Notes: generated from the letters alone by a model not told the origin. 64,000 bases of DNA from Nannocystis bainbridge (GCF_028368995.1 NZ_JAQNDL010000001.1:1056001-1120000), one strand, 5' to 3'. Shown: positions 5,857 through 42,867, counted from the stretch's first letter. Translations and numbers: made by a program.

Positions 5857-5954
5857 TGTCCGCGAGGACATTCCCGATCGAACATTTTTCTTCGGACATG
5901 CCCGGATAGACATGCCCGAAGGGACATGCCCGAAGGGACATTCACGATCGGTCA
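5857..5954. repeat. Array of about 7 head-to-tail 14-bp TGYC-N6-GACA-like units
   Basis: Units start at 5857, 5871, 5885, 5899, 5913, 5927 and 5941; two identical TGCCCGAAGGGACA copies. Confidence 0.9.
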
Positions 5955-6494
5955 GCGCGGGCGGAACGCGTCGGGCTCGTCCTGCACGCGGCCCTCGAGC
6001 CAGCCAGCGCGCGCGTCGGGGAACGCGTCGGCGTACGGCACGTACGGCTTGAGGTCGAGCACCGGGGTGCCGTCGAGGATGTCGAGCCCGAGCACGTGGA
6101 CCACGCCGGCCTCGATCGCGGTGATCCGCAGGCACGACAGCCCGATCGGGCTCGGCCGGTGCGGCGCGCGGGTCGAGAACAGCCCGACCGATCGCCCCGG
6201 GTCGCGCGGCGACCTGACCTTCAGGCCATATCCCTGGTTGAGGTGGAACACGAACAGGCACCAGATCCGCTCGAACTCGGCCAGGTCCTGCAGGCCGGCC
6301 GCGAACTCGGGCAGCACCTCGATGCGGCCGGGCAGCGCCCGATCTTCCTTGACCTGGGTGGTGATCGTCGGCTGGCGCGGGGTCCCGAACCGCTCGGTGT
6401 ACGGCGAGCGCACCACGCCGATCGGGGCGAACGAGAAGCTCGGGCGCTCATCGCGGCCGGTGGTGTGGTCCTGCTCGGGGATGCTGCGGCGCAC
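5952..6494 (-). CDS. tsaA: tRNA m6t6A37 methyltransferase TrmO/TsaA
   Basis: PIGVVRSPY..RFGTPRQP, GLFSTRAPHRPSPIGLS and DILDGTPVLDLKPY family motifs. Confidence 0.92.
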   Translation of the reverse strand: MRRSIPEQDHTTGRDERPSFSFAPIGVVRSPYTERFGTPRQPTITTQVKEDRALPGRIEVLPEFAAGLQDLAEFERIWCLFVFHLNQGYGLKVRSPRDPGRSVGLFSTRAPHRPSPIGLSCLRITAIEAGVVHVLGLDILDGTPVLDLKPYVPYADAFPDARAGWLEGRVQDEPDAFRPR

Positions 6495-6600
6495 GCGGCG
6501 ATCCTAGCCCAGATCGCCGGTTTCGCGCCCGCGCGTGCGCAGGAGCACGTAGGCGCGCCCTGGCGGGCCCGGCCGCGCTTGGGCTAAGAGCCTGCTCCTC

Positions 6601-7956
6601 GTGGGCGAGGTCCTCGCAGAGTTGAGGCGGCTCGCCGTCCTCGCCGTGCCGCTGGCGCTGACCCAGCTCGGCAACATGATGCTCGGCATCGTCGACATGC
6701 TGATGCTCGGGCGCGTCGGTCGCGAGGCCCTCGACGCCGCGGCGCTCGGCAACCTGTGGGGCTACGCGGTCCTGACGATCGGCATGGGCATGGTGCTCGG
6801 CTGCGACCCGTTCATCGCCCAGGCCCACGGCGCCGGCGACGGCCGCACCCTCGGCCTCACGCTGCAGCGCGGCGTGGTCCTGGCGGTGATCGCGAGCGTG
6901 CCGGTGATGCTGCTGTGGCTGCTCGCCGGCCCCGGCCTGCAGCTGCTCGGCCAGGCCCCGCACCTCGCGGTCCAGGCCCACGAGTACCTGCTCGCGCAGC
7001 TGCCCGGCGCGCCGGCGGTGCTGCTGTACGTGGCCATGCGCTCGTACTTGCAGGGCCGCGGGATCACCGGCCCGGCGCTGGTCGTCATGCTGGCGGCCAA
7101 CATCGTCAACGTCGGCCTCAACTACTGGCTCATCTTCGGCGGCCTCGGCGTGCCCGCGCTCGGGGCCGTCGGCGCCGGCATCGCCACCGGCGTGGTGCGC
7201 GTGCTCATGGCCGCGGCGCTCGCCTGGTTGATCGTGCGCCGCGGCATGCACCACGGCGCGTGGGTGCCGTGGTCGCGGGCCGCGCTCGACCGCACCGCCC
7301 TCCTTGCGATCGCCGGCGTCGGCGTCGGCATCGGCCTCCAGCTCGGGCTCGAGATCTGGGCCTTCCAGGCGGCGATGCTGTTCGCCGGCTGGCTGGGCGA
7401 CGCCCCGCTCGCGGCCTACACGATCGTCCTCAACCTCGCCTCCGTCAGCTTCATGATCCCGGTCGGGATCGCCATGGCGGCAGTGACCCGCGTCGGCAAC
7501 CTGCTCGGCTCGGACCGCCTCCGCGAGGCCGAGCGCGCGGCGTGGGTCGCCCTGGGTCTCGGGGCGGCTGTCATGTGCGCCTCGGCGGTGCTGATGTACG
7601 GCCTGCGCAGCGAGCTGCCGGCGCTGTTCAAGGCCGACGCCGAGGTCTATGCGCTGGCGGCGGCCAGCCTGCCGATCGCCGCCGCGTTCCAGCTGTTCGA
7701 CGGCGTCCAGGTGGTCGGCTTCGGGGTCCTGCGCGCCATGGGCCGCACGCGTTACGCCGCGGTCATCAACTTCTTCGGCTACTACGCGGTCGCCCTGCCG
7801 CTCGCGTGGTGGCTGGCGTTCGAGCGCGGCCACGGCATCGCCGGGCTGTGGTGGGGCCTCACCGTCGGCCTTGCGCTGGTGGCGGTCGCGCTGCTCGCGT
7901 GGATCGCCGCCCGCGGCCCGGCCACGGCCCGGAAGATCGCGCTCGAACAGCGTTAG
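6601..7956 (+). CDS. MATE family efflux transporter
   Basis: About 12 hydrophobic segments; LAVPLALTQLGNMMLGIVD, QAHGAG and QLFDGVQVVGFGVLRAMG (NorM-like). Confidence 0.93.
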   Translation: MGEVLAELRRLAVLAVPLALTQLGNMMLGIVDMLMLGRVGREALDAAALGNLWGYAVLTIGMGMVLGCDPFIAQAHGAGDGRTLGLTLQRGVVLAVIASVPVMLLWLLAGPGLQLLGQAPHLAVQAHEYLLAQLPGAPAVLLYVAMRSYLQGRGITGPALVVMLAANIVNVGLNYWLIFGGLGVPALGAVGAGIATGVVRVLMAAALAWLIVRRGMHHGAWVPWSRAALDRTALLAIAGVGVGIGLQLGLEIWAFQAAMLFAGWLGDAPLAAYTIVLNLASVSFMIPVGIAMAAVTRVGNLLGSDRLREAERAAWVALGLGAAVMCASAVLMYGLRSELPALFKADAEVYALAAASLPIAAAFQLFDGVQVVGFGVLRAMGRTRYAAVINFFGYYAVALPLAWWLAFERGHGIAGLWWGLTVGLALVAVALLAWIAARGPATARKIALEQR

Positions 7957-8026
7957 TGCCGCCGCGTCACGTCGTGGTGAGCGCCGGCGGTCGCGCGAGC
8001 GGCGGGCATTGAGTATCGTGCCGGCC

Positions 8027-9577
8027 ATGAAAACGGACACGGACGTGATCGTCGTCGGCGCCGGCCACAACGGGTTGGTCGCGGCGCTGTTGCTCGCCAG
8101 GCGCGGCCTGCGAGTGCGGGTGCTCGAGGAGAAGGACGTCGTCGGCGGCGCCGTCCGCACCGAGAAGCCGTTCGCGCGCGCTCCCGACCTTGCGATCTCG
8201 ACCGGCGCCTACCTGCTCGGACTGATGCAGCCGGAGCTGCTGAAGATCACCGGCGTCGACCTGCCGCTGCGGCGCCGCGACCCGCACTACTTCCTGCCGA
8301 CCACCGACGGCCGCTACCTGCTGCTCGGCTCCGACGCCGCCGAGACCCGGCGCCAGTACGCCGCCTTCTCCTCCGAGGCCGACTGGCACGCCGACCAGGC
8401 GATGCAGGCCGAGCTGGCCCAGCTGCGCGAGGACCTGGCGCCGTCGTGGTTTCACGAGCCGCTGTCGCTCGAGGACACCGCCGAGCGCTACGTCCGCAGC
8501 TCGATGCGCCAGGTGTTCGTCGACCTGTGCCGCAAGCCGGTCGGCGACTACATCGATCGCTTCCCGTTCAAGAGCGACCTGATCCGGGCGATGTACGCCT
8601 CGACCGACGGCTTCACCGGCGTCTACGGCACCTGGGACACGCCGGGCACCGGCATGAACTTCCTCGTCCACAACATGTGCCGCCTGCCCGGCGCGGCCGG
8701 CACGTGGATGCTGGTCGAGGGCGGCATGGGCACCGTGTCGCAGAAGTTCGCCGCCGCCGCGCGGGCCGCCGGCGCCGTCATCGACACGAACAACGGCGTC
8801 CAGCAGATCCTGGTCGAAAACGGCGCCGCCGTCGGCGTGCTCACCCACAAGGGCGAGGAGCTGCGCGCGCGCGTGGTGCTCGTCGGCGCCGACCCGTTCC
8901 GCATGCGCGACATGGCCGGCCGCGACAACTTCCCCGCCGACTACAACACCCGCCTCGACTCGATGCGCCGCGACGGCACCTCGCTCAAGGTCAACCTCGC
9001 GCTCAAGGGCCTGCCGCAGTTCACCTGCCTGCCGGTCGACCGCGGCCAGTACGGCCCGACGATCCACCTGCTGCCCGACGAGGAGGTGGTGATCCGCAGC
9101 TTCGGCGAGGCGTTCCGCGCGGTCCAGGCCGGCAAGCTGCCCGACTTCCCGGTCATCGACTGGTACATCCACACCACCGTCGACCCGACCATGCGCGACC
9201 AACACGGCCACCACAACTCGGCCCTGTTCGTGTCATGGGTCCCCTACGAGCTCGCCGGCACCACCTGGGAGCAAGAGGAGAGCCGCTACGTCAAGCACCT
9301 GCTGTCGATCTGCGACCGCTTCGCCCCCGGCACCAGCGACCTGGTGGTCGACACGTTCGTGCTCCCTCCGCCGAAGATCGAGCAACACTTCGGCATCACC
9401 CGCGGCCACATCCTCCACGTCGACAACACCTACGGCTTCGACCAGCGCGTGCCCTACCGCCAGCCGATCGCCGGCCTCTACGCCGCCTCCGCCGGCACCC
9501 ACCCCGGCGGCGGCGTGATCGGCTGCGGCGGCCACAACGCCGCGATGGCCGCGCTCAAGGACCTCGGCCTGAACTGA
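8027..9577 (+). CDS. FAD-dependent oxidoreductase, phytoene desaturase superfamily
   Basis: VIVVGAGHNGLVAA dinucleotide-binding motif, GGMG, and C-terminal THPGGGVIG..GHNAA. Confidence 0.9.
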   Translation: MKTDTDVIVVGAGHNGLVAALLLARRGLRVRVLEEKDVVGGAVRTEKPFARAPDLAISTGAYLLGLMQPELLKITGVDLPLRRRDPHYFLPTTDGRYLLLGSDAAETRRQYAAFSSEADWHADQAMQAELAQLREDLAPSWFHEPLSLEDTAERYVRSSMRQVFVDLCRKPVGDYIDRFPFKSDLIRAMYASTDGFTGVYGTWDTPGTGMNFLVHNMCRLPGAAGTWMLVEGGMGTVSQKFAAAARAAGAVIDTNNGVQQILVENGAAVGVLTHKGEELRARVVLVGADPFRMRDMAGRDNFPADYNTRLDSMRRDGTSLKVNLALKGLPQFTCLPVDRGQYGPTIHLLPDEEVVIRSFGEAFRAVQAGKLPDFPVIDWYIHTTVDPTMRDQHGHHNSALFVSWVPYELAGTTWEQEESRYVKHLLSICDRFAPGTSDLVVDTFVLPPPKIEQHFGITRGHILHVDNTYGFDQRVPYRQPIAGLYAASAGTHPGGGVIGCGGHNAAMAALKDLGLN

Positions 9578-9639
9578 AGGACATGCCCTCCGGGGCATGT
9601 GCTGAAGAGCATGTCGGAAGGGGCATGTTTTCAAAAACA
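9570..9639. repeat. 14-bp unit array (about 5 units) between convergent genes
   Basis: CATG junctions at 9582, 9596, 9610, 9624 and 9638, each 14 bp apart. Confidence 0.88.
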
Positions 9640-9707
9640 TGCCCCTTCTTACGTCGCACCGCCGGCCTCCCCGGACCTCCCGGGAATGGCGATCCGGGCC
9701 GGCAGCG

Positions 9708-10265: not shown

Positions 10266-10408
10266 CTCCTCATGATGGCCGCCCCCGGAGCGACCTGTCA
10301 ATCTTCGCCGCCGCACGCCTGTGGCCAAGGCGACCGCTCCCAGGTCCGCGCCGACGCCTCGCTCGCGCCGAAGCCGTCCGCGAGACCCGAGAGCGCCGCG
10401 GATACAGA

Positions 10409-10463
10409 TGTCCTGAGAGCCATGCACTTTAGAACATGTTCTTCACGACATGTTCGAAGAGCA
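10409..10463. repeat. 14-bp unit array (3-4 units) in a divergent intergenic region
   Basis: tgtcctgagagcca|tgcactttagaaca|tgttcttcacgaca|tgttcgaagagca. Confidence 0.8.
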
Positions 10464-10600
10464 CAGCCCCACGCGTCAGCAGCCTCAGCCCGGCGACCAC
10501 GGTGCCCGGCGCGAGCGACCGCAGGACCCTGAGCCTGAACGGCGCCACGCAGCGCGCCAGCGCAGACAGCCCGCGATGCTTGCGGCAAGCTCGCGCCGCC

Positions 10601-10939: not shown

Positions 10940-11248
10940 CCCTGGGCCCCGTTCGCCTCACGTAGGCGCCGTGAACGCGACGAACCTCTGCTCAAAGCAG
11001 ACGCTCACCGAAATTCATCGATCCCACGGTTGGCTCGAATGCTGGCGATCGCGTCGTCGAGAGTGATCGCCGCCGACTTCCTGCTCCCGCCTCTTCAAAG
11101 AAGAGACGCACCCGCGGCGCGCTGAATTCCCGCGTTCGAACCGTCCGCGTTTGCCCAGCGCGCAGGGCCCGCGCGCTCCGATTCCGCGCCAGGCGCGCGG
11201 CGCATTTTTTCGTGACACACTCGGGCTCCCGGCTCGCACTCACCCGAC

Positions 11249-11887
11249 ATGCCCAGCTCCCGGCCCGCTCCGTCCGTCGAGGCGCTGCTCGCGTTGATGC
11301 AGCGCGGCGACCTGCGCGCGCTCGACCACCTCGCGCGGGCTTACGGCGAGCGGCTGCTCGCGGTCGCGCGGCGGCGCTGCGACCTGCGCGAGGACGCCGA
11401 GGACGCCGTGCAGCAGGCCCTGCTCGCGGCCGGCGCGGCGATGACCGGCTACCGCGGCGAGGGCTCTCCGCTGGCGTGGCTCTCGACCCTCGTCGCCCGC
11501 ACCTGCTGGCGGATGAACCGCAAGGCCGCGGCGACCGCCGACCTCGACGACGTCCCCTGCACCTGCGACGACCCGGCCGAGGTCGCCGAGCGGCGCGAGC
11601 TCGGCGCCAGCCTCGGCGACGCGCTCATGACCCTGTCGCGCACCGATCGCCTGGCCTTCTTGCTCGCCGCCGAGGGCGTCAGCAGCGTCGAGATCGCCGA
11701 GCGCTTCTCGCTCACACACGACGCCGTGCGCAGCCGGCTCAAGCGCGCCCGCAAGGTCCTGCGCGCCGCCCTCGAAAATCGTGACACACCGCCGGCCCGC
11801 GGCCGCACTGCATCGACGAGCCCCACGAAAGGACCGCTCTTCGATGACGACCTCGCCCAATTCCTCGCCCCATCACCGCAGCGATGA
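11249..11887 (+). CDS. ECF (sigma-70 group 4) sigma factor
   Basis: Region 2 DAEDAVQQA..WLSTLVAR; region 4 EIAERFSLTHDAVRSRLKRAR; CTC in the linker. Confidence 0.9.
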   Translation: MPSSRPAPSVEALLALMQRGDLRALDHLARAYGERLLAVARRRCDLREDAEDAVQQALLAAGAAMTGYRGEGSPLAWLSTLVARTCWRMNRKAAATADLDDVPCTCDDPAEVAERRELGASLGDALMTLSRTDRLAFLLAAEGVSSVEIAERFSLTHDAVRSRLKRARKVLRAALENRDTPPARGRTASTSPTKGPLFDDDLAQFLAPSPQR

Positions 11888-12173
11888 CGCCTCGTTCGCC
11901 GCCGACGTCGCGGCCTCGCCCTACGTCCTCGTCAAGTTCGCCGGCGCCTGGTGCCCGCCCTGCCGCGCGCTCCAGCCGACCCTCGACGCGATCGCCCGCG
12001 ACCGCAGCGACCTCGCGGTGTTCGACGTCGACGTCGACGCCAGCCACGCCCTCGCCGAGCGGTTCGGCGTGCGCAGCATCCCGACCCTGGTCGCCTTCCG
12101 CGACGGCCAGCCGATCGGCCAGCTCGTCGGCAACCAGCCGCGCGCCCGCATCGAGGCGCTGCTGCGCGGCTGA
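11844..12173 (+). CDS. Thioredoxin
   Basis: WCPPC active site, FGVRSIPTL; AAAGGA before the ATG; overlaps the end of the sigma ORF. Confidence 0.92.
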   Translation: MTTSPNSSPHHRSDDASFAADVAASPYVLVKFAGAWCPPCRALQPTLDAIARDRSDLAVFDVDVDASHALAERFGVRSIPTLVAFRDGQPIGQLVGNQPRARIEALLRG

Positions 12174-12200
12174 TCACCGGCTCCACGCGGCCGGCCCGCG

Positions 12201-12454
12201 CATGTCTCTCGGGGCATGTTCTCGGGGGCATGGCACGACAGGCATGTCTCCGAGTACATGTTATCGCGAGGCATGCTCCCGCGGCATGATCTCGGGGGCA
12301 TGTCCCGACAGGCATGTCTCCGAGGACATGTTCTCGCGAGGCATGCTCCCGGGCATGCTCTCGGGGGCATGTCCCGACAGGCATGTCTCCGAGGGCATGT
12401 TCTCGCGGAGCATGATCTCGGGGGCCTGCCCTGGGCAGGATGTCCCCGCGGACC
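12201..12454. repeat. Longest 14-bp unit array (about 18 units) with a ~70-bp higher-order duplication
   Basis: 16 CATG junctions from 12201 to 12411, mostly 14 bp apart (range 12-15); 12241-12310 is nearly identical to 12311-12379. Confidence 0.93.
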
Positions 12455-12487
12455 TCTCGAGCAGCCTGCGCGCGCCTGCGCGGCGGC

Positions 12488-13615
12488 CTACCCGAGCTCG
12501 GCCAGGCCGCCGGTCAGGCCCAGCGCCTTGAACAGCTCGGCCAGCTTCTTGGCGGGGATCCGCTTGCTCGCCGCGGCCTCGACGCGCGGCATGGCGAACG
12601 CGAACGCGTCGAGGTCGGCGAAGCCGCGCTCCGCGTCGAACGAGTCGCTCTCGTGCTCGTAGCCGAGCACGCGGCCGGTGGTGGTGTCGAGCAGGTGCAT
12701 GTTGCCGGAGCCGTCGGCGGACAGGCCGACGTAGCGCTCGTCGGCCGCGCCCGCCAGCCCCTGCTTCACGCAGTCGAAGCCGTACGTGCCCGACACGTCG
12801 AAGCGCTGCCCGAGCCACGGGAACCGGCCGCTGCGGACCAGCGCGTCGAAGGCCCGGGCGGCCGCGCGATGCCCCTCCGGCAGGCGGTCGATCCACTGCG
12901 CCAGCGGACGGGAGTCGGCGGCCAGCTCGGTGACGCGACGGCCGTTCGGGAAGAACGCCGCCAGGTCGCGCTCGAACTCGCCGCGCGCCACGTAGCCCGG
13001 CAGGCTCGCTGGCGTCGCCTCCTGGCCCCACGCCTTGATCGGCTTCGGTTGCACGATCTCCTGCCCGTCGCGGTCGAAGAACGCGGTGCTCTTGCGCTTG
13101 CCGTCGACGAACTCGGACACCCCGCGGTGCGGATGCGGCTTCGGCAGCTTGACGTCGTGTGCGCCGATCACCGTGTCACCGAAGCGGAGGATCTCGCCCT
13201 CGGTGATCTTCAGCCAGTCGAAGCGGCCGTGCAGCCGACCGCCGCGCCACGACGCGACCAGGGCGACCGCGCCGAACGGATAGCCGTGAAAGGTCGCGCG
13301 GACGATCGCGCCGTCCTCGTACACCGCCTCGATGCGGGTGGTCAGCGACGGGCCGATCGGGAGCCCGTACTGCTGCTGCAGCGCGATCGCGGCCCGCCGC
13401 GGCTCCTCGCCGTAGTTGAACTCGGGGTGGTTGGTGACCCACTCGACCGCGCCGTGGAGCTTGCCGGCGCGCAGGTTGGCGTCGAGCAGCGGCTGGCCGT
13501 CGCGATACCAGCGGCGGACCACGGTCTCGCTGTCCTCGCGCCACTGCGCGGACTCGGGATCGTAGGTGGCGGAGGCCGGGACGTGCTCGGGACGGGGCGG
13601 GCTGGCGGCGGTCAT
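12488..13615 (-). CDS. Hypothetical protein with MORN/YwqK-like N-terminus and possible SMI1/KNR4-like C-terminus
   Basis: WYRDGQ..GKLHG and GRLHG repeats; ADGSGNMHLLD..GRVLGYEHE..FADLDAF resembles the SUKH core. Confidence 0.6.
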   Translation of the reverse strand: MTAASPPRPEHVPASATYDPESAQWREDSETVVRRWYRDGQPLLDANLRAGKLHGAVEWVTNHPEFNYGEEPRRAAIALQQQYGLPIGPSLTTRIEAVYEDGAIVRATFHGYPFGAVALVASWRGGRLHGRFDWLKITEGEILRFGDTVIGAHDVKLPKPHPHRGVSEFVDGKRKSTAFFDRDGQEIVQPKPIKAWGQEATPASLPGYVARGEFERDLAAFFPNGRRVTELAADSRPLAQWIDRLPEGHRAAARAFDALVRSGRFPWLGQRFDVSGTYGFDCVKQGLAGAADERYVGLSADGSGNMHLLDTTTGRVLGYEHESDSFDAERGFADLDAFAFAMPRVEAAASKRIPAKKLAELFKALGLTGGLAELG

Positions 13616-13719
13616 CGGCGCGACTTGGTACCACAATTCGCGGGCCGGACGCGCGCGCGCTCGCGCCCGCCATCGCCGGCCTGTCGCCCCGTGGAACCCC
13701 TGAACACATCGCGCGAAAA

Positions 13720-13863
13720 TGTCTCTTAAGACATGTCCAATGGGCCATGTCATCGCGCGTCAGGGCGGCGACGTCGGCGCGCACGGACGAACATGTCCCC
13801 GGGGACATATTTTAAACAGCATGTCCGCGAGAACATGCCCGATCGCGCATGTCCGGGCGGACA
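13720..13863. repeat. Two sub-arrays of the 14-bp unit (13720-13747 and 13794-13863)
   Basis: Includes TGTCTCTTAAGACA, the perfect palindrome TGTCCCCGGGGACA, and TGTCCGGGCGGACA. Confidence 0.9.
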
Positions 13864-13870
13864 CCCGCGC

Positions 13871-14356
13871 TCACGCCCGCCGCGCGGCCGGCTTCTTCGC
13901 GCTCTTCTTCTTCTTGTGCGAGCACGGCCCGCCGCGCTTCTCCAGCCGCGCCAGCTCCCCCGCCAGGGTGCGCTCGGCCAGCACCGCCAGGCTCGCCTGC
14001 TCGAGCTCGTGCGACAGCTCGCTGAACATCAGCTCCATGTTGGCCGTGACGACGCAGCGGCGCGGGATGTCGGAGCGGCCGGCGAACAGGCCGCGCTCGC
14101 CGAGCACCGCCAGATAGACCTCGCGCAGCGTGATCGCCCCGGCCGGCCGGGCCAGGCGCGAGCCGCCCTTGACCCCCATCGTCGTGACGATCAGGCCCGC
14201 CGCCGCCAGCGTCGCCAGCAGCTTGCGGATCAGCGACGGGTTGGTCGCCAGCCCCTCGGCCAGCGCCGAGGACGAGAGCAAGCCCGCGTCCTCGCGCTCG
14301 GCGAGCGCCAGCATGAGCATCAGCTGCAGCGCCGAGGCGAACCGAACGTCCACCAT
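13871..14356 (-). CDS. Rrf2 family transcriptional regulator
   Basis: RFASALQLM, SSALAEGLATNPSLIRKLL and GVKGGSRLARPAGAITLREVY. Confidence 0.92.
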   Translation of the reverse strand: MVDVRFASALQLMLMLALAEREDAGLLSSSALAEGLATNPSLIRKLLATLAAAGLIVTTMGVKGGSRLARPAGAITLREVYLAVLGERGLFAGRSDIPRRCVVTANMELMFSELSHELEQASLAVLAERTLAGELARLEKRGGPCSHKKKKSAKKPAARRA

Positions 14357-14380
14357 GCGCGAGGTGTAGCACGCGGGCCC

Positions 14381-17062: not shown

Positions 17063-17380
17063 TGCCCGGGATGCTAAGCCAACCCGGGCCCTCGCGGGGC
17101 GCGCGGCGCTCGTGAACTAGCGCGTGGTCCCGCCCGGATCATGCGCGGCCACGAGCCATGAGTCCGCATCCTCGGGCGTGCGGCGGAGCGCGCAGTCACG
17201 CGCTGTCAAATTCGCCTCGTGGAAGTCAAAGGCCCGCTCGCGACCGGCGCCAACTGCACAGTTATTCAGCCCGCGCGAGCCCGTAGGCGGGCTCCTAGGC
17301 CCCTGAATTCCCCGAATTGTTGCCCCCGCGGCGCCCGATCTGATAGCGCCGCCCAGGTGCCCAGCAGCAAGAACCGCCGG

Positions 17381-18895: not shown

Positions 18896-18899
18896 AGCA

Positions 18900-18982
18900 T
18901 GGCCGCGAGGACATGCCCCGAAGGGCATGTCCCCGAGCCCATGGCCCGAAGGACATGTCCACACGGACATGTCCTCTCGTCA
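18900..18982. repeat. 14-bp unit array (6 units) filling the whole convergent gap
   Basis: CATG at 18898, 18912, 18926, 18940, 18954 and 18968. Confidence 0.92.
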
Positions 18983-20615: not shown

Positions 20616-21239
20616 TCAGTATCCGTCGGGGATCTTGCCGTTCAAGAAATGGATCGTGTTCGGCTCGCGCCGCCGCGACCACAGCGCCTCGACCGGAGTG
20701 TCGGCTGTCCCTCGGGACAGGCCCTCCTGCGTCGACCAGCCCGGCACCTCGCCGGCGCGCAGGCTGTGCAGCCCGCTCTGCCACACGCCGATGATGTACG
20801 TGTGCCCGGCCGCGCGCCCGCCGAAGAAATCGGTGAAGCGGCGCGCGAACTCCTGCCCGCGCGCCGCCCCGAACGCCTCGCAGGTGCGAAACCACCACAG
20901 GTGATCGGGCACCATGCGCTCGCGGATCGCCGCGAGCTTGACGTGCAGCGGGTGCGTCGGCAGCAGCGCGTCGGCGGTCAACCCCTTGCGATCGACGAAC
21001 AGCTCGCCCCAGTGGCCGTGCCCCCAGTACTGGATCTCGGCGATCTCGCGCCCGGGGTGGGTCGTGGCCAACCACTCGAGCCCGTCCTCCCAGCAGGTCA
21101 CCCCGTGCGCCGCGTCGAACCGCGACAGCCCGCGGTACAGGTGCGCGCCGGCCCCCCACGCGTGCGACAGGCCCGGCCGCAGGCGCTTGCCGGTGCAGGT
21201 GCGGTCGAACAGCATCAGGCGCAGCGGAGCGGAGCGCAT
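20616..21239 (-). CDS. Hypothetical protein with GHG...RTC (DUF4347 / clan CD-like) motif pair
   Basis: EIQYWGHG and WWFRTC, each following a hydrophobic strand. Confidence 0.65.
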   Translation of the reverse strand: MRSAPLRLMLFDRTCTGKRLRPGLSHAWGAGAHLYRGLSRFDAAHGVTCWEDGLEWLATTHPGREIAEIQYWGHGHWGELFVDRKGLTADALLPTHPLHVKLAAIRERMVPDHLWWFRTCEAFGAARGQEFARRFTDFFGGRAAGHTYIIGVWQSGLHSLRAGEVPGWSTQEGLSRGTADTPVEALWSRRREPNTIHFLNGKIPDGY

Positions 21240-22284: not shown

Positions 22285-24861
22285 ATGCCGCAGCGCCGCG
22301 CCCTCCGTCCCTCGCCGCTCCCGCTCCTCGCGCTCGCCTGCGCCGTCGCCTGCGGCGATGAACCGGCCGACGACGCCGGCGCCACCGACAGCGACACCGA
22401 TACGACCACCGCCGCCAGCGCGACCTCGGAGGCCGCGCCGACCACCAGCGGGACCACCGCCTGGGAGGAGGAGACCGAAAGCGAGCCCGAACAGCCGGTC
22501 ACCGTCGAGTGGTCCGAGCTCGAGCTGCGCCTGATCCGCGGCGGCGACGTCCTGCTGCGCTTCCCGGCCGACGGCTTCCAGCTCGGCGTGGTCGCGGCCC
22601 TCGACGACGACTCGTCGTACGACCCGGTGTTCCTGGCGCCCGACGCCTGGCGCACCGTCACCGCCGCCGAGGAGCTCGCCAGCGACGCCGCGGTCGACGT
22701 GCGCCTGTCCTTCGGGACAGATCTGCACGCGCGCCTGACCGTCACCGAGGCCGCCCCCGGGCGGTTCGCCGCCAGCCTGATCCCCGAGCCCGGCGGACCG
22801 GCCCTCGCGTACATGCGCCTGCGCCCCGTCGTCGACCCGGGCGAGGGCTTTTATGGCCTCGGCGAGTACTTCGACGCCGCCGAGCACCGCGGGCGCGTGC
22901 GGGCGATGCAGCTCGAGTACGACCCCCAGATCGAGAGCCAGTACAACGAGGCCCACGTGCCGGTCCCGTTCGTCACCGGCACGCGCGGCTGGGGCATGTT
23001 CGTCGCCGACCCGCACGCCGCGGTGTTCGACGTCGCCGCCGCCGCCGCCGACCGCGTCGAGGCGACCTTCGGCACCGGCCCCGACACCGCCGCCGGCCTG
23101 GTCTTTCACCTCTACGCCGCCGACCACCCGCTCGACGTCACGCGCCACTACTACGCCACCACCGGCGCGCCGAAGCTGCCGGCCCCGTGGGCGCTGGGCC
23201 CGTGGATCTGGCGCGACGAGAACGACGACCAGGCCCAGGTCGAGGAAGACATCGCCACCATCCGCGAGCTCGACCTGGCGACCTCGGCGATCTGGATCGA
23301 TCGCCCCTACCAGAGCGCCGTCGGGGTGTTCGACTGGCACGCGACCCAGTTCCCCGCCCCGCAGGCGATGATCGGCAAGATCCACGACCTCGGCCTGCGG
23401 CTCGCGCTGTGGCACGTGCCCTACGTCGACGACGTCCCGGCCGCCGCCGCCATGCGCGACGAGGCCGAGGCCAATGATTTCTTCCCGCCCGAGGTCGGCC
23501 TCATCACCTCCGATTGGGGTGAGCCGCTCGATCTCACCAATCCCGACGCGTTCGAATGGTGGCAGGACCACATCCGCGAATACACCGACCACGGGATCGA
23601 CGGCTTCAAGCTCGACTACGCCGAGGACATCACGGTCGGCCTCGGCGGCGCGCGCACGGTCTGGCAATTCGCCGACGGCAGCAGCGAGCGGACCATGCAC
23701 AAGCTCTACCAGCTGCTCTACCACCGCGCCTACGCCGAGCTGCTGCCCGAGGCCGGCGGCTTCCTGCTGTGCCGCGCCGGCACCTACGGCGATCAGCAGA
23801 ACGTCAGCGTGATCTGGCCCGGCGACCTCGACGCCAACATGGCCGCGCACCGCGAGCAGGTCGACGACGACGGCGACACGTACGTGGCGGTCGGCGGCTT
23901 GCCAGCGGCCCTCACCGCCTCGCTCAGCCTCGGCCCCAGCGGCTTCCCCTTCTTCGCCTCCGACACCGGCGGCTATCGCCACGCGCCGCCCGATCGCGAG
24001 ACCTTCGTCCGCTGGTTCCAGTACACCGCGCTCACCCCGGTCATGCAGGTCGGCACCGGCTCGTCCGACGTGCCGTGGGAGTTCACCCCGGCCAACGGCC
24101 TCGACGACGAGAGCCTGGCCTGGTACCGCCAATACGCGCGGCTGCACCTGCGCCTGTTCCCGTACGTGTGGACGCACGCGCAGGCGCTGGCCACCGGCGG
24201 CCGCCCGCTCCAGCGCCCGCTCGGCCTCGCCTTCCCCGAGCTCGGCGTCCACCCGTCCGACGCCTATCTGCTCGGCAACAACCTGCTCGTCGCGCCCGTC
24301 GTCGCTCGCGGCGCCACCTCGCGCAAGCTGTCCCTGCCGCCCGGTGCCTGGCTCGACTGGTGGACCGGCGAGGTCCTGCAGGGCGACCAGGAGGTCACCG
24401 TCGCCGCCCCGCTGGCCACCCTGCCGCTGTTCCTGCGGGTCGGCGGGATCGTGCCGATGCTGCGCCCGACCATCGACACGCTCGCGGAGGCCACCGCGGC
24501 CGACGTCGACTCGTTCGTCGGCGACCCCGGGATCCTCCACGCCCGCATCGCCCCCGGCCCGCTCGGCAGCCGCTTCGACCTGTACGATGGGACAGCTCTG
24601 CACCAGCGCCTCGGCAAGGCCGCGCTGCACCTCGAGGTCAGCCCCGGCGCGGTGTTCACCAGCGGCTTCGACCTCGAGATCCACGCGCTCCCGCCGATCG
24701 CCGCCGTCACCGTCGACGACGCCCCGCTGAGCCAACACCCCGACGCCCCTGCGCTCGACGCCGCCCCCGACGGCTGGTTCCACGGCAGCGACCTCGGCGG
24801 CACCCTGCGCCTCAAGCTCGGCCCCGGCGCGCACACCGTGGTGGCCACGCTCGCCGAGTAG
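22285..24861 (+). CDS. Glycoside hydrolase family 31 lipoprotein
   Basis: FYGLGE, WIDRPY, GIDGFKLD (nucleophile), WPGD, SDTGG and YLLGNNLLVAPV; lipobox AVAC. Confidence 0.92.
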   Translation: MPQRRALRPSPLPLLALACAVACGDEPADDAGATDSDTDTTTAASATSEAAPTTSGTTAWEEETESEPEQPVTVEWSELELRLIRGGDVLLRFPADGFQLGVVAALDDDSSYDPVFLAPDAWRTVTAAEELASDAAVDVRLSFGTDLHARLTVTEAAPGRFAASLIPEPGGPALAYMRLRPVVDPGEGFYGLGEYFDAAEHRGRVRAMQLEYDPQIESQYNEAHVPVPFVTGTRGWGMFVADPHAAVFDVAAAAADRVEATFGTGPDTAAGLVFHLYAADHPLDVTRHYYATTGAPKLPAPWALGPWIWRDENDDQAQVEEDIATIRELDLATSAIWIDRPYQSAVGVFDWHATQFPAPQAMIGKIHDLGLRLALWHVPYVDDVPAAAAMRDEAEANDFFPPEVGLITSDWGEPLDLTNPDAFEWWQDHIREYTDHGIDGFKLDYAEDITVGLGGARTVWQFADGSSERTMHKLYQLLYHRAYAELLPEAGGFLLCRAGTYGDQQNVSVIWPGDLDANMAAHREQVDDDGDTYVAVGGLPAALTASLSLGPSGFPFFASDTGGYRHAPPDRETFVRWFQYTALTPVMQVGTGSSDVPWEFTPANGLDDESLAWYRQYARLHLRLFPYVWTHAQALATGGRPLQRPLGLAFPELGVHPSDAYLLGNNLLVAPVVARGATSRKLSLPPGAWLDWWTGEVLQGDQEVTVAAPLATLPLFLRVGGIVPMLRPTIDTLAEATAADVDSFVGDPGILHARIAPGPLGSRFDLYDGTALHQRLGKAALHLEVSPGAVFTSGFDLEIHALPPIAAVTVDDAPLSQHPDAPALDAAPDGWFHGSDLGGTLRLKLGPGAHTVVATLAE

Positions 24862-25178: not shown

Positions 25179-25220
25179 TGTCACGAAGACCATGTCTGAT
25201 AGGACACGTCCATCGCGACA
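25179..25220. repeat. 14-bp unit array (3 units)
   Basis: tgtcacgaagacca|tgtctgataggaca|cgtccatcgcgaca. Confidence 0.8.
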
Positions 25221-33051: not shown

Positions 33052-33324
33052 ATGTCCAAGATCTTCTCAGCCCTGCTCATCGCCCTCTCCCTCACCGCCA
33101 CCGTCGCCTGCGACGACCCCGACAGCGACAAGAAGGTCGACGACACCGGCGACGACTCGACCGGCGGCGAGGACGACAGCACCACCAGCGGCGGCACCGC
33201 GGAGGTCGAGACCACCGCCCCCGCCACCACCGAGGAGGAGGAGAAGCCCGGCTGTTTCAACGGCAACCTCCTCCAGCTCCCGCCGACCGGCGGCCCCAAC
33301 GGCACGCTCGGCGACAACTGCTGA
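33052..33324 (+). CDS. Small acidic lipoprotein
   Basis: MSKIFSALLIALSLTATVAC signal and lipobox; GGAG upstream. Confidence 0.8.
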   Translation: MSKIFSALLIALSLTATVACDDPDSDKKVDDTGDDSTGGEDDSTTSGGTAEVETTAPATTEEEEKPGCFNGNLLQLPPTGGPNGTLGDNC

Positions 33325-33327
33325 ACA

Positions 33328-33490
33328 TGACCCTCTAGACATGGCTAAACGGCCATGTCTCTTCAGACATTCAAAGCGCGAAAGACATCTCGTTCCACTC
33401 GGCACCGAGGCACTCTGCCTCGGAATGGCCGGGAAACGCTCGCTCGCGGTCCGCCAAAAACATGTCTCTTCAGACATGTACCTCGAGCCA
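33328..33490. repeat. Two 14-bp sub-arrays flanking a hairpin, between convergent genes
   Basis: Identical TGTCTCTTCAGACA at 33356 and 33463; CCGAGGCA-CTC-TGCCTCGG hairpin at 33405-33423. Confidence 0.85.
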
Positions 33491-34773: not shown

Positions 34774-34871
34774 CGCCGGTCTCTATACCCGGCTCACAGC
34801 AAAGACGGGGGCGGATCCTTCGCCTCGCTCCGCCCGACGTGCTCGACAGCGCCCGTCGAGTCGTCGACACA

Positions 34872-34913
34872 TGGCGATTTGAACATGACCCTTCGGACAT
34901 GCCCTTCGAGGCA
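34872..34913. repeat. 14-bp unit array (3 units) right after the MFP stop codon
   Basis: tggcgatttgaaca|tgacccttcggaca|tgcccttcgaggca. Confidence 0.82.
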
Positions 34914-34915
34914 TC

Positions 34916-36055
34916 TCACCCGACCGTCGGCACGACCTCGACGGCTTGCCCGCTCTCGAGCGTATCGGGCGGCTGCAGCACCACCTCGTCGCCCGCGGCC
35001 ACGCCTTCGAGCACCTCGATCTCCTTGCCGAAATCGCGGCCCAGCTTCACTGGCACCAGCGTCACTGCGCCTTCGGCCACCTTCGCCACCAGCGTCCCCT
35101 CCTTGCGGACCACCAGCGCGCTCGCCGGGATCGTCGGCACCGGTCGCGCGCGCGGCACCTGCAGGCGCGCGTACACGAACGAGCCTGGCAGCACCGCCTC
35201 GTCGCCGGGCACCTCGATCTCCACGCGCAGCGTCCGCGTCCGCGTCTCGAGCACCCCGCTCGTGCGCGTCACCACCCCTTTCACCGTGCGGGCCGGGTCG
35301 CGCGGCGAGAACAGCTCCGCCGGGTTCCCGATCCTCACATCGGCCGCGTGGCTGTCGGGCACATCGACCAGCACCCGCAGCTTCGAAACATCGGCCAGCT
35401 CGTACAGCGGCGCCCCGCCGGCCGCTGCCGGTCCTACCAGCGCCCCCGAGTCGACCAGGCGTCGCGTCACCACCCCGTCGAACGGCGCCACGATCTGCTG
35501 GTACCCGCGCAGCGCCTGCAACCGCTTCAGGTCCGCCTTGCGCGTCGCCACCAGCGCGTCCGCCGAGTTCGCCAGCGCCAGCGCGTCGTCCGCTTCTTGC
35601 CGCGACACCGCCCCGCTGCCTGCCAGCGTGCGCGTGCGGTCCGACGTCGTCTGGTGGATCCCCACGTTCGCGCGCGCCTCCGTCAGCCGCGCGCGGGCCA
35701 GCCGGATCTCCTCGTCCGTCTCCGGCGCCTCGATCTCCGCCAGCACCTGCCCGGCCTTCACCGAGTCCCCGAGCTCCACCAGGTAGCGGCGCACGAACCC
35801 CGTCGACTTGCTGTAGAGCGTCGACTGCCGGATCGGCGTCGAGCTCGCCGGCAGCGTCAGCTCGTGCGCCTCGTCGCCGGCGCGGACCGACGCCACGCGG
35901 ACTCGCTTCGGCCCGGTCGCCTGGGCCAGCGTCTGCGCTCGCGCGTCGCGCTGCTCGAGCCGCGGCCCGACGCCGACCACCACCGCGCCGGCCAGCACCG
36001 CCGCGATCATCGCCATTACCGGCCACCCTGGCCTGCCAGACTGCAACGTCGTCAT
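34916..36055 (-). CDS. RND efflux periplasmic adaptor (MFP)
   Basis: GDSVKAGQVLAEI, IVAPFDGVVTRR and LPGSFV; ATGA overlap with the upstream permease. Confidence 0.93.
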   Translation of the reverse strand: MTTLQSGRPGWPVMAMIAAVLAGAVVVGVGPRLEQRDARAQTLAQATGPKRVRVASVRAGDEAHELTLPASSTPIRQSTLYSKSTGFVRRYLVELGDSVKAGQVLAEIEAPETDEEIRLARARLTEARANVGIHQTTSDRTRTLAGSGAVSRQEADDALALANSADALVATRKADLKRLQALRGYQQIVAPFDGVVTRRLVDSGALVGPAAAGGAPLYELADVSKLRVLVDVPDSHAADVRIGNPAELFSPRDPARTVKGVVTRTSGVLETRTRTLRVEIEVPGDEAVLPGSFVYARLQVPRARPVPTIPASALVVRKEGTLVAKVAEGAVTLVPVKLGRDFGKEIEVLEGVAAGDEVVLQPPDTLESGQAVEVVPTVG

Positions 36056-39234: not shown

Positions 39235-39279
39235 GAGCGATTACCGGGCTGAGCAGGGGTGGGAGGGAGTCGGAGGAGA

Positions 39280-39293
39280 TGACTGTTTAGTCA
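39280..39293. promoter_or_regulatory. Candidate TetR operator overlapping a TTGACT -35-like box
   Basis: TGACT-GTTT-AGTCA palindrome about 45 bp upstream of the RND start. Confidence 0.45.
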
Positions 39294-39339
39294 AGTTCGA
39301 GAGCGCAAAAACGCGCGTCGGATCGCGCCCGACACGAGC

Positions 39340-39951: not shown

Positions 39952-40304
39952 GGGCTCGGTTCTACTTGACCGATCGTCTCGGCGCAACAGCGCGCTTTAC
40001 GCAGGACGATACGCTTCGCTGCTTCGCGGAGACGTCTGCGCTGGCGAACTCGAGCCCGCCCGCTCGAAGCCGATGCGTCGCGCTCGTTGTCAGTCGTCCA
40101 CGCTCACGAACTCGCAAGCACGCATCGACGATGCCCGCTCGCAGCGAGCCCGACCGACGGCCGCTCGTTGCCGCGAACGCTCGCGTCCGCGTGCGCCGTC
40201 GAGCCCCGTTCGCTGCATCTGCCCGCGCGAACTCTCGTATGCGATCCTTCGACATGTCCTCGAGGACAGCCTGAGCGCTCGCGCCCTCGGCTACCCTGGC
40301 AGCC

Positions 40305-41346: not shown

Positions 41347-41382
41347 CCAACTCACGCATGGCCAGCAAACCTGGCCTACGCG

Positions 41383-42786
41383 CTATTTCTTGCGAGGTTT
41401 TGCCAATTTTGCCACCGCGTTGCCAACCACCTGGTTCGCCGCGGTGTCGAGGAGCGCCGCCCCCTTCCGGGACAGCTCCGACTGCTGGGTGTGCAGGTAC
41501 GCCTGCGTGGTCGTGATCCGCGCGTGGCGGGCGACGGCCTGCACGACGTAGACGCTCGCGCCCAGGTTCGCCAGGCGCGTGAGCCCCGTATGACGGAGCA
41601 GGTGAGGGCCGTTCGTGAGCAGGCCAGCGCTACGCTGCGCCTGCTTGAGCATGTACTCGATCGAGCGCGGGTTGTGCGGCGCCCACTCACCGCCGGTGTA
41701 CTGGCTGCGGCGGTAGAGGACCAGCGGGCCGATCGGCTCGCGCTTCTTGTGCTCGACCAGCGCGCGCCGCAGCGCCGCCGTCAGCGCGACCGTCCCGATC
41801 GTGCCCTTCGGCGTCTGCTTGTGCCCGCGGTACACGTTGTGCTGCACCTTGATCGTGCCGACGTTGAGGTCGACGTCGGTCCACTCGAGCGCGCAGATCT
41901 CGGACACGCGCAGGCACGTGTCGAGCGCGAGCAGGATCATCAGCTCGGTCTCCGGCCCGAGCGCGCGCGCGGCCGTGAGGAGCCGGTCGAGCTCGTCGTC
42001 CGAGTACACCGTCTTCGTGTCGATCTTGCTCGTCTTGAGCTTCTCGACCTCGGGCACGACCTCGAGCTTGCGGAGCTTCCGCGCGAAACGGAGGATCTTG
42101 CCCAGCTTCGTCAGGAACATGTTCGCGGTCGAACGGGCGACGCGCTTCAGCAGCGCCGCGCGGAGCTGGGACAGGCGGTCCTCGTCGATCTCCGCGAGCG
42201 GGACATCGCCGAGCAAGGGATGAAAATGGCGGCGGTAGATGACGTCGTAGCTGACTTGCGTGCCCAGCTTCTGCAGCTCCACGTACTCGGGTACGAAGCG
42301 CTGCTCGTAGAAGTCCGCGAACGTCAGTGACGAGCGCGGAGGGCTGGTCTCCTTCGGGGTCTGAGCCGCTTCCGGGCCGCCTCCGCTCACGGCCCCGACA
42401 AGCTCTCGAAGGATCGCCGGCACCTGGCGCTCGCCCCAGAGTCGGGCCTGGCTCTCGTCCAGCCCCGGGGGCGCGACCATGCGCCGGCGGATCTCATCGT
42501 TGTCCTTGCAAGGGTTCATGAAACGGATGTCGATCTGGAAACGGGAGGGGTCGCTGTTGTACGGGCGTGTCTTGATCTTCATGGCCGGGCCTGCCGGCCG
42601 GGCGCAATCCCGCACCCAAGAGAGCACGGCCTCGCGCGTCCACGCAAGCGCTTTCCCGCTCTTGAAGGGTTTCGGGACCTGCCCTCGCAGCGCGCGGCTG
42701 CGTACGGCCTTGGGGCTGATGCCCAAGAGCCGCGCGAAGTCCTCGACCCTCAAGATCAGCGGCAGCTCGGGCGCCGCAGTCAGCAC
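41383..42786 (-). CDS. Tyrosine recombinase/integrase with N-terminal excisionase-like HTH
   Basis: LRVSE (R), TPK (K), HLLRH (HxxR), ARH..TTQAY (H, Y); N-terminal LRVEDFARLLGISPKAVRSR..GQVP. Confidence 0.93.
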   Translation of the reverse strand: MLTAAPELPLILRVEDFARLLGISPKAVRSRALRGQVPKPFKSGKALAWTREAVLSWVRDCARPAGPAMKIKTRPYNSDPSRFQIDIRFMNPCKDNDEIRRRMVAPPGLDESQARLWGERQVPAILRELVGAVSGGGPEAAQTPKETSPPRSSLTFADFYEQRFVPEYVELQKLGTQVSYDVIYRRHFHPLLGDVPLAEIDEDRLSQLRAALLKRVARSTANMFLTKLGKILRFARKLRKLEVVPEVEKLKTSKIDTKTVYSDDELDRLLTAARALGPETELMILLALDTCLRVSEICALEWTDVDLNVGTIKVQHNVYRGHKQTPKGTIGTVALTAALRRALVEHKKREPIGPLVLYRRSQYTGGEWAPHNPRSIEYMLKQAQRSAGLLTNGPHLLRHTGLTRLANLGASVYVVQAVARHARITTTQAYLHTQQSELSRKGAALLDTAANQVVGNAVAKLAKPRKK

Positions 42787-42839
42787 GATCTCTTCGCGCT
42801 GAAGACTCCGCCCGACGCTCTTCTCCGGGCCAGATGGCA

Positions 42840-42867
42840 TGTCCTCACGGACATGTCCATCAAGACA
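42840..42867. repeat. Two perfect 14-bp units upstream of the integrase
   Basis: TGTCCTCACGGACA|TGTCCATCAAGACA. Confidence 0.85.

What the first reader, a model, noticed from the sequence alone, without database searches (positions are those of the whole stretch)
5857..42867. Dispersed head-to-tail arrays of a 14-bp palindromic unit (TGTC-N6-GACA) with fixed register
Seen: about a dozen intergenic regions (5857, 9570, 10409, 12203, 13720/13794, 18900, 25179, 32752, 33328/33463, 34872, 40255, 42840) carry 1-18 abutting 14-bp units. The ends (TGYC...GRCA) are conserved and the middles vary freely, so CATG recurs every 14 bp. I counted at least 17 exact TGTC-N6-GACA copies in the window by eye; a naive independent-base estimate at about 70% GC is about 0.5. 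Arrays occur between convergent, tandem and divergent genes and often abut stop codons. Inference: conserved ends with free spacers and kept register suggest polymeric binding sites for a dimeric protein (nucleoid organiser, partition/occlusion-type factor or global regulator) rather than a VNTR, classical REP or terminator. Three units (42 bp) equal four helical turns. I do not recognise this as a described element.
Basis: partly seen in the sequence, partly recalled or inferred. Interest (0 to 1): 0.9.

Follow-up and report, generated by a model that had tools for sequence, protein, structure and literature searches.

The report
Phased 14-bp palindrome boxes, Nannocystis
This myxobacterial genus writes a 14-letter mirrored DNA word thousands of times through its genome, singly inside genes and stacked in exact register just behind genes, and selection keeps the word, so something unknown must read it.

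Summary
TGTC-N6-GACA occurs 17 times in the window against 0.61 expected. Genome-wide it occurs 3663 times at k=6 against 29-175 at every other spacing from 0 to 19. CATG recurs at lag 14 and not at 13 or 15.

The unit is the box TGYCC-N4-GGRCA, and CATG is only the junction of abutting boxes. In the genomes searched it is confined to one genus, most likely Nannocystis.

Arrays sit a median 16 bp behind stop codons, in 37.5% of convergent, 9.2% of tandem and 3.6% of divergent gaps.

Between species the arms are conserved while the 4-nt middles diverge faster than neutral references. Solo boxes are 15-fold enriched inside genes and are kept at synonymous sites. Half-sites alone are not enriched.

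There is no transcription-strand bias, no U-tract and no RAYT gene. Arm covariation is weak but register-specific.

Best reading: a selected two-fold DNA word for an unidentified symmetric binding protein, piling up REP-like at gene ends.

My searches found no publication. This scan noted the element before on three other pieces of this genome, and CATG-centred arrays on other DNA.

The parts
5857..5954 (.). Array of about 7 boxes in register. The last box overlaps the stop codon (TCA on +) of the minus-strand TrmO-like gene 5952-6494.
   Evidence: orthologous arrays in G010, G005 and G007
9582..9641 (.). Array with 5 CATG junctions, starting 5 nt after the stop of the flavoprotein gene 8018-9577. 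The next called gene is convergent.
   Evidence: orthologous units alignable in G010 and G005
10407..10452 (.). Array with 4 junctions, the first degenerate.
12201..12425 (.). Largest array in the window, about 16 units with indels, organised as a 69-bp higher-order repeat x3. It lies between the convergent thioredoxin gene 11844-12173 and gene 12488-13615.
13718..13749 (.). Short array with 3 junctions.
13792..13865 (.). Array with 6 junctions, ending 6 nt from the stop of the minus-strand Rrf2-type regulator gene 13871-14356.
18898..18971 (.). Array with 6 junctions that fills the gap between the convergent M23 peptidase gene 17357-18895 and gene 18980-19222.
25179..25220 (.). One exact box (25193-25206) with degenerate in-phase neighbours.
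33326..33369 (.). Short array starting 2 nt after the stop of gene 33052-33324.
33461..33478 (.). One box with both CATG junctions, near the stop of the minus-strand gene 33526-34653.
34870..34915 (.). Array with 4 junctions, ending 1 nt from the stop of the minus-strand HlyD-type gene 34916-36016.
40255..40268 (.). Solo exact box.
42838..42869 (.). Two abutting exact boxes.
598..611 (.). Solo exact box inside called gene 63-1799. A second one lies at 880-893.
20706..20719 (.). Solo exact box inside called gene 20616-21239.
22706..22719 (.). Solo exact box inside called gene 22285-24861.
58063..58076 (.). The only box in the lower-GC stretch 43001-59700.

Best explanation
The element is a genus-specific genomic word, most likely of Nannocystis. 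It is the 14-bp interrupted palindrome TGYCC-N4-GGRCA, with weaker flanks RCM...KGY. Purifying selection keeps it as a two-fold symmetric DNA sequence.

I think it is most likely the site of an unidentified symmetric DNA-binding protein, a dimer or a filament-former. Each subunit would read one 5-bp half-site, and subunits could pair both across the 4-nt spacer and across the CA|TG junction.

Solo boxes arise by point mutation wherever a protein sequence allows. Arrays grow by replication slippage on the shared 10-bp junction GGRCATGYCC, which gives the exact 14-bp register. They persist only where nothing else is encoded, directly behind stop codons and above all between convergent genes. There the coated, hairpin-capable arrays would act REP-like as gene-end marks or insulators.

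Shown: the word, its excess, its register, its placement, its genus restriction, and its conservation between species. Inferred: the protein, the slippage origin, and any gene-end function.
For: - Excess and register.
- The unit is the box, not CATG. Arrays end with a complete TGnCC-N4-GGRCA and show no CA enrichment before it. Solo boxes carry symmetric flanks.
- Sequence is conserved rather than structure. In 100 gap-free orthologous units (G000 against G010), C, A, T and G of the junction are 98, 91, 92 and 97% identical and the spacer 47-53%. References are 83% for 88 array-free intergenic gaps and 85.5% for third codon positions. Junction against intergenic reference: p=2e-11.
- Inside gene interiors there are 875 strict boxes against 49-72 after synonymous resampling and 18-31 after codon shuffling.
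- Of 26 deep-gene boxes with an ungapped orthologue, 19 are intact in G010. Third-codon positions inside the arms are 97/102 identical against 84.7% in the flanks (p=0.002).
- Half-sites alone are not enriched (0.83x). The box is enriched 15x and the everted junction GGACATGTCC 7x.
- There is no transcription-strand asymmetry. Wobble against mismatch: 285 against 262 gaps, p=0.35. Loop tetramers: 22 tests, none surviving correction.
- Spacer-edge constraints are symmetric.
- The sister genus G011 has 87 exact boxes against 10 control, some in promoter-like AT-rich gaps. That fits an ordinary operator that expanded.
- Recent slippage is visible. 20 of 1670 adjacent pairs are identical against 0.3 expected, and the window holds a 69-bp higher-order repeat.
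- Arrays are stable in place: 31 of 33 alignable orthologous gaps also carry an array in G010.
Against: - No reader protein was identified. No gene family is tied to the arrays: 27 genes are flanked on both sides, with no similarity among them.
- The arms covary weakly but in the correct register. Odds ratios are 1.77, 1.95 and 1.68 on true pairs against 0.68-1.25 off-register. Between species the odds ratio is 1.83, p=0.08. A single dimeric reader does not predict this, and hairpins do.
- Arrays fold very stably: RNA -52.3 kcal/mol, z -6.8; DNA -31.2 kcal/mol, z -6.9.
- The placement just behind stop codons, with the stop often embedded in the box phase, is what a terminator-like element would show.
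- The spacer evolves 3-4 times faster than the references and is AT-enriched. The protein model does not explain this.
- The junction enrichment inside genes may partly come from near-boxes, which I could not separate.
- Gene calls come from my own codon-bias caller. An independent GC-phase test agrees.
Confidence: 0.45

Rival explanations
1. Hairpin-based gene-end element. Arrays, and perhaps solo boxes, act as RNA or single-stranded-DNA hairpins. They would be bidirectional factor-assisted terminators or 3' mRNA stabilisers, like the genus-specific TRIT motif of Mycobacterium or REP hairpins.
For: - 1300 genes have an array within 120 bp of their 3' end and 182 at the 5' side.
- The median distance from array to stop codon is 16 bp. 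Peaks show the stop codon embedded in the box phase.
- 543 of 1449 convergent gaps carry an array.
- Arrays fold strongly.
- Arm covariation is register-specific.
- Fast, AT-enriched spacers would fit exposed loops.
- TRIT is likewise genus-limited, palindromic, sequence-conserved and overlaps stop codons (passages of PMC3152330).
Against: - There is no T-tract: 22 of 428 arrays are T-rich downstream, against 23 on the other side.
- There is no sense-strand preference for G.U over A.C or for UUCG-type loops.
- The bases TG/CA are fixed as sequence and are not replaced by other pairs.
- 875 boxes lie inside genes and are conserved at synonymous sites. A terminator should be selected against there.
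- A solo box gives only a 5-bp stem.
Confidence: 0.25
2. By-product of a molecular drive rather than a cell-level function. The word could be an uptake-signal-type or other self tag that spreads because DNA carrying it is favoured in transformation, repair or recombination.
For: - The word is genus-specific and enriched in genes as well as gaps.
- It is spread over all contigs, with 1 empty bin of 219 bins of 50 kb.
- It is nearly absent from the lower-GC, non-syntenic stretch of the window (1 box against 36). That fits slow accumulation in resident DNA.
Against: - Known uptake sequences are single asymmetric words. Here half-sites alone are not enriched (0.83x) and only paired arrangements are.
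- Exact abutting arrays are not a feature of DUS or USS.
- Competence in this genus was not examined here.
Confidence: 0.12
3. Decaying selfish micro-repeat of REP or MITE type that once spread and now sits in the safest places, without any present function.
For: - It is enriched in convergent gaps and avoids divergent gaps.
- Unit numbers differ between species at most loci.
Against: - The genome has no Y1/RAYT gene, while the control search rang in 6 of 14 reference genomes.
- No flanking gene family exists.
- Arrays keep their place in 31 of 33 orthologous gaps.
- The arms are more conserved than neutral references, also inside genes.
- Copies inside genes cannot be 14-bp insertions.
Confidence: 0.08

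Closest known systems
REP elements and their BIME clusters (enterobacteria, pseudomonads)
   Same: Short palindromic repeats in hundreds to thousands of copies. They cluster in gaps behind genes and between convergent genes and avoid promoters. They can form hairpins, and host proteins are thought to bind them (recalled: gyrase, IHF).
   Different: - The unit is 14 bp with 5-bp arms, not 20-40 bp.
- Units abut head to tail in exact register, rather than alternating in orientation with linkers.
- The genome has no RAYT/Y1 transposase.
- Boxes are strongly enriched and conserved inside genes.
TRIT, the 'Tuberculosis Rho-independent terminator' motif of Mycobacterium (PMC3152330, passages read)
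   Same: It is genus-restricted, palindromic and conserved as sequence. It sits tightly at or over stop codons, is bidirectional, and its authors suspect an extra reading factor.
   Different: TRIT has 147 copies, is a single longer hairpin, and is not reported in arrays or inside genes away from the stop. Here there are thousands of copies, exact tandem stacking, and enrichment inside genes.
HIP1-type highly iterated palindromes of cyanobacteria (recalled, not read here)
   Same: A lineage-specific palindromic word, far over-represented in genes and gaps alike and kept by selection.
   Different: HIP1 is a contiguous 8-bp palindrome, is not stacked in phased arrays at gene ends, and is linked by its students to methyltransferases. 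No such link was tested here.
Tandem operator arrays for small dimeric repressors and partition proteins (MetJ metboxes, omega heptads, ParR iterons; recalled)
   Same: Abutting short sites in fixed register, read by stacked dimers.
   Different: Those are one or a few loci per replicon with near-identical units. Here there are about 1800 loci with free middles, plus solo sites in genes.
CATG-centred palindrome arrays noted earlier by this scan in Solirubrobacterales (e1-5202463 and related; unchecked AI notes)
   Same: Rows of palindromes behind stop codons in a high-GC soil bacterium, with CATG recurring at a fixed period.
   Different: There the units are 24-bp perfect palindromes whose arms always covary, with CATG at the centre. 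Here the arms are fixed as sequence, covariation is weak, and CATG is the junction between units.

Membership tests
REP/BIME (RAYT-associated) | A Y1 (RAYT/IS200-like) transposase gene in the genome | tested here: not met
   PF01797 has 0 matches in the own genome. The same search rang in 6 of 14 control genomes. The genome is 90.5% complete.
REP/BIME (RAYT-associated) | Imperfect palindrome of about 20-40 bp with a conserved 5' tetranucleotide, clustered in alternating orientation | tested here: not met
   The unit is 14 bp with 5-bp arms, and units abut head to tail without linkers.
REP/BIME (RAYT-associated) | Extragenic, at gene 3' ends and between convergent genes | tested here: inconclusive
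   The array placement fits: 543 of 1449 convergent, 408 of 4424 tandem and 53 of 1476 divergent gaps. But 875 strict boxes lie in gene interiors.
Canonical intrinsic terminator | GC-rich hairpin followed by a U-tract | tested here: not met
   The hairpin is present in arrays. No T enrichment follows: T frequency is 0.13-0.20 downstream, and 22 of 428 arrays are T-rich against 23 on the other side.
TRIT-like sequence-conserved terminator motif | Genus-limited palindromic motif positioned at or over stop codons | tested here: met
TRIT-like sequence-conserved terminator motif | Transcripts end at the motif | not testable with these tools
   No RNA run holds this genome.
Uptake signal sequences (DUS/USS) | A single oriented word enriched on its own | tested here: not met
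   Half-sites TGTCC/GGACA are at 0.83x expectation in genes outside boxes. Only paired arrangements are enriched.
HIP-type iterated palindrome | A palindromic word over-represented in genes beyond codon-based expectation and conserved between species | tested here: met
   15x over synonymous resampling. 19 of 26 boxes are kept in G010, and arms at third positions are 97/102 identical against 84.7%. The sample is small.
HIP-type iterated palindrome | A cognate DNA methyltransferase | not tested
   No methylome or methyltransferase search was made.
VNTR / minisatellite | Near-identical tandem units | tested here: not met
   20 of 1670 adjacent pairs are identical. The Hamming distribution is close to that of random pairs.
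Known RNA families (Rfam 15) | A match at gathering score | tested here: not met
   0 matches in the window.

The most novel reading that the evidence does not exclude
The box is the address of a so far unknown filament-forming DNA-binding protein. The protein tags the whole Nannocystis chromosome at single sites, even inside genes. It polymerises in 14-bp steps over gene ends, so that more than a third of convergent gene pairs are separated by a protein-coated, hairpin-prone barrier. That would be a sequence-programmed system for insulating transcription units or handling supercoils, with no described counterpart.
Probability: 0.3. Interest if true: 0.8.

Novelty: new variant of a known kind. 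Interest (0 to 1): 0.65.

Why it matters
Genus-specific genome words that selection maintains in thousands of copies are rare; Chi, uptake sequences, HIP1 and REP are the known cases. Each of those led to a piece of machinery.

Here the word is well defined and its arms are demonstrably constrained, even at synonymous sites. It occupies over a third of convergent gene gaps.

Strains of this genus have been isolated and sequenced.

The unusually fast, AT-enriched spacer between fixed arms is also a natural probe of local mutagenesis at protein-bound or hairpin-forming DNA.

Tried and rejected
- First guess of Sorangium, from genome size and GC. Dropped after the only genome-contig hit was titled Nannocystis pusilla and after the earlier scan notes. 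The Sorangium paper searches were therefore off target and found nothing.
- RNA evidence: no RNA holder is listed for the window.
- Viral contigs: 0 hits for a three-junction pattern.
- My first covariation test on 1670 three-junction runs showed none. The larger set and the odds-ratio matrix showed a weak, register-specific signal, so 'no covariation' was withdrawn.
- The junction polarity (ACATGC against GCATGT) looked like a sense-strand effect (134 against 97 arrays, p=0.018). It vanishes for within-box pairs and switches regionally along contigs. I read it as replication-strand compositional skew, not function.
- Search for a driver gene: the 27 genes flanked by arrays on both sides share no similarity.
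- A recalled resemblance of CATGTCC-N4-GGACATG to the PadR operator ATGT-N8-ACAT could not be backed. The paper search returned 0, and solo boxes have A before TG in only 25-41% of cases.
- Autoregulated-regulator hunt: 101 small genes have a box within 120 bp upstream. They were not scanned against Pfam.
- '42 bp = four turns': array sizes are 2:818, 3:411, 4:245, 5:259, 6:182, 7:73, 8:18, with no multiple-of-three preference.
Full report
**Observation**

100 dinucleotide-preserving shuffles gave a mean of 0.61 and a maximum of 4. Tandem Repeats Finder sees 14-bp periods at 5895, 9592, 12200, 18908 and 42838. It also shows that the 12200-12425 array is a 69-bp higher-order repeat x3.

The window is G000:C1:1056001-1120000 of an 11.05-Mb genome with 71.5% GC. 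Genome-wide, TGTC-Nk-GACA gives 3663 at k=6, 29-175 at all other k from 0 to 19, and 984 at k=20. CATG-to-CATG distances peak at 14 (3736), 28 (2073), 42 (1586), 56 and 70. Lags 13 and 15 are at background (72 and 262). In the window itself the counts are 36 at lag 14, 1 at lag 13 and 3 at lag 15.

**What the unit is**

The logo between junctions is CATG-Y-C-C-nnnn-G-G-R. At the outer ends of 801 strict arrays (1602 ends), the sequence completes TGnCC-N4-GGR-CA, while CA before it is not enriched. The unit is therefore the interrupted palindrome TGYCC-N4-GGRCA, and CATG is only where two units abut.

Solo boxes (706 in gaps, 651 in called genes) carry extra symmetric flanks, R-C-M before and K-G-Y after.

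The spacer is not fully free. Position 1 avoids A (0.06) and position 4 avoids T (0.06). CTTC, CGAA, CTCG and TTCG dominate.

Seeding on CATG pairs gives 2012 arrays with 6950 junctions. Sizes are 2:818, 3:411, 4:245, 5:259, 6:182, 7:73, 8:18, 9:4, 11:1 and 12:1. These merge into 1799 loci. Sizes show no preference for multiples of three.

**Where it sits**

I called genes with my own codon-bias caller: 8059 genes covering 82% of the genome. For the 1179 loci with three or more junctions (two-junction loci were dropped), 552 are between convergent genes, 420 between tandem genes, 53 between divergent genes and 154 inside a called gene.

By gap type, 543 of 1449 convergent, 408 of 4424 tandem and 53 of 1476 divergent gaps carry an array. 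The median distance to the nearest stop codon is 16 bp. The median distance to a start codon is 187 bp.

A caller-independent check agrees. Flanks of arrays with four or more junctions are in the same GC phase 117 times and in a different phase 222 times, which is the chance ratio. Random sites gave 2700 against 245.

Stop codons are often written into the box phase, with distance peaks at 0, 9, 14 and -5. No T-tract follows the arrays.

Flanking genes in the window are unrelated: a flavoprotein, an M23 peptidase, a thioredoxin, TrmO, a HlyD-type protein and an Rrf2 regulator. Boxes occur on all contigs, with only 1 empty bin of 219 bins of 50 kb.

**Taxonomic range**

A four-junction pattern has 869 hits in G000. 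All 10 other genomes of the same genus have hits: 409-527 in the five genomes of 12-13.2 Mb, and 1-13 in the five of 4.5-9.1 Mb. There are 0 hits in 8 other genera of the family and 0 in 12 other families. The reversed control gave 0.

Among 400 further genomes of the phylum, 15 have 1-5 hits. The ones listed are ordinary perfect tandem repeats.

Exact TGTCC-N4-GGACA counts are as follows:
- G000: 1987, against a control of 3.
- The large congeners: 1550-2090.
- The small congeners: 114-959.
- The sister genus G011: 87, against a control of 10.
- Elsewhere: 0-5.

The small congeners have few abutting pairs (3-14), against 114 in G000.

A strict five-junction pattern over 185,579 species' genomes hit one record, titled Nannocystis pusilla. 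This names the genus and agrees with the earlier scan notes.

In G011 some boxes lie in AT-rich, promoter-like gaps before lipoprotein and desaturase genes.

**Evolution**

I fetched 880 kb of G010 syntenic with G000. Of the G000 arrays, 47 had both flanks there. I aligned the 33 whose length differed by at most 100 bp and dropped the other 14. G010 also carries an array in 31 of those 33 gaps, often with a different unit number.

In 100 gap-free units with CATG in G000, identity by position is:
- junction C, A, T, G: 0.98, 0.91, 0.92, 0.97
- left arm Y, C, C: 0.64, 0.70, 0.83
- spacer: 0.50, 0.52, 0.47, 0.53
- right arm G, G, R: 0.75, 0.79, 0.74

The references are third codon positions at 0.855 and 88 array-free gaps at 0.83 of aligned sites. 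The junction is more conserved than these (p=2e-11). The spacer is far less conserved (p=4e-49).

Recent duplication is visible but rare. 20 of 1670 adjacent pairs are identical, against 0.3 expected.

**Inside genes**

In 7169 gene interiors (7.97 Mb, trimmed by 60 nt at each end), the strict box occurs 875 times. Synonymous resampling gives 49-72 and codon shuffling gives 18-31.

Of 784 strict boxes lying deep inside genes, 26 had an ungapped orthologue in the G010 segment, and 19 of those keep the box. Third-codon positions inside the arms are 97/102 identical, against 84.7% in the flanks (p=0.002). Spacer positions are 86/104, against 4707/5178 in the flanks (p=0.009).

Half-sites alone are not enriched (0.83x). 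GGACATGTCC is enriched 7x, although near-boxes may contribute to that figure.

**Structure or sequence?**

Arrays fold strongly by pairing neighbouring junctions: RNA -52.3 kcal/mol, z -6.8; DNA -31.2 kcal/mol, z -6.9.

Arm covariation is weak but register-specific. Odds ratios are 1.77, 1.95 and 1.68 on the true pairs and 0.68-1.25 off-register. Between species the odds ratio is 1.83 (p=0.08), against 0.71 for the off-register control.

There is no transcription-strand signal:
- G.U-type against A.C-type pairs: 285 against 262 gaps, p=0.35.
- Loop tetramers show no bias after correction.
- The junction R/Y polarity switches regionally along contigs and looks like replication skew.

Other negatives: no Y1 transposase, no shared flanking gene family, no Rfam match, and no viral contig with the pattern.

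**Reading**

The fixed bases, the two-fold symmetry, the absence of strand bias, the conservation at synonymous sites and the need for paired half-sites point to a DNA word read by a symmetric protein. The gene-end stacking, the hairpin potential, the weak covariation and the fast, AT-enriched spacer keep a REP/TRIT-like hairpin role alive. The two readings are not exclusive. The exact register needs only slippage on the 10-bp junction. I give the protein-read word 0.45, a hairpin gene-end element 0.25, a drive by-product 0.12 and a decaying selfish repeat 0.08.

**Literature**

Searches for Nannocystis with genome, repeat and intergenic (2 papers), with palindrom (5) and with repetitive (15, of which 10 were listed) showed nothing on this element in the listings. 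A search for myxobacteria with 'repetitive extragenic palindromic' and intergenic returned 0. Passages of the N. exedens genome announcement mention only large unresolved repeats. TRIT was read in passages. The Sorangium searches were off target. HIP1, MetJ and the REP-binding proteins are recalled, not read.

**Earlier scan notes**

Three follow-ups on other pieces of this genome describe the same element with an unknown reader. CATG-centred palindrome arrays were noted in Solirubrobacterales and in a giant virus. I treated these as unchecked leads.

Noticed in passing
window 43001-59700: A lower-GC stretch (0.67 against 0.72) holds 1 relaxed box, against 36 in 1-43000. Synteny with three congeners ends near 41348. 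Its genes include an adenylate cyclase-AAA-TPR protein, a Ser/Thr kinase and a SUFU-like protein. It looks like strain-specific DNA that has not acquired the word.
   Followed up: partly
window 43215-43310: A separate 11/22-bp tandem repeat (GTCCCGATAGG / GTCCCGATCCG, 4-7 copies), unrelated to the box.
   Followed up: no
window 12212-12422: This box array is itself a 69-bp higher-order repeat x3 at 90% identity. That is direct evidence of recent multi-unit duplication.
   Followed up: partly
genome-wide; G000 against G010: The 4-nt spacer diverges 3-4 times faster than array-free gaps or third codon positions, also in solo boxes inside genes. It is about 50% GC in a 71.5% GC genome. The cause is unknown.
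   Followed up: partly
G000 contigs C1-C3: ACATGC against GCATGT junction classes switch regionally along contigs. For example, C1 mostly has ACATGC in excess, while the first 1.5 Mb of C3 has the reverse. This is probably replication-strand skew and might help place ori and ter.
   Followed up: no
G011 (sister genus), loci L068, L072, L074: The sister genus has 87 exact boxes against 10 control. Some lie in AT-rich gaps just upstream of lipoprotein or desaturase genes and have extended CATG flanks. This may be the ancestral operator-like state.
   Followed up: partly
G002, G006, G008, G009 (same genus, 5.3-9.1 Mb): These genomes have many solo boxes (333-959 exact) but only 3-14 strict abutting pairs. 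Stacking into arrays therefore seems to be a habit of the large-genome species, or arrays are lost in these fragmented assemblies.
   Followed up: partly
window 13871-14356 (-): An Rrf2-family regulator gene has a six-junction array 6 nt behind its stop. A 375-aa gene without a Pfam match (12488-13615) is flanked by arrays on both sides.
   Followed up: no
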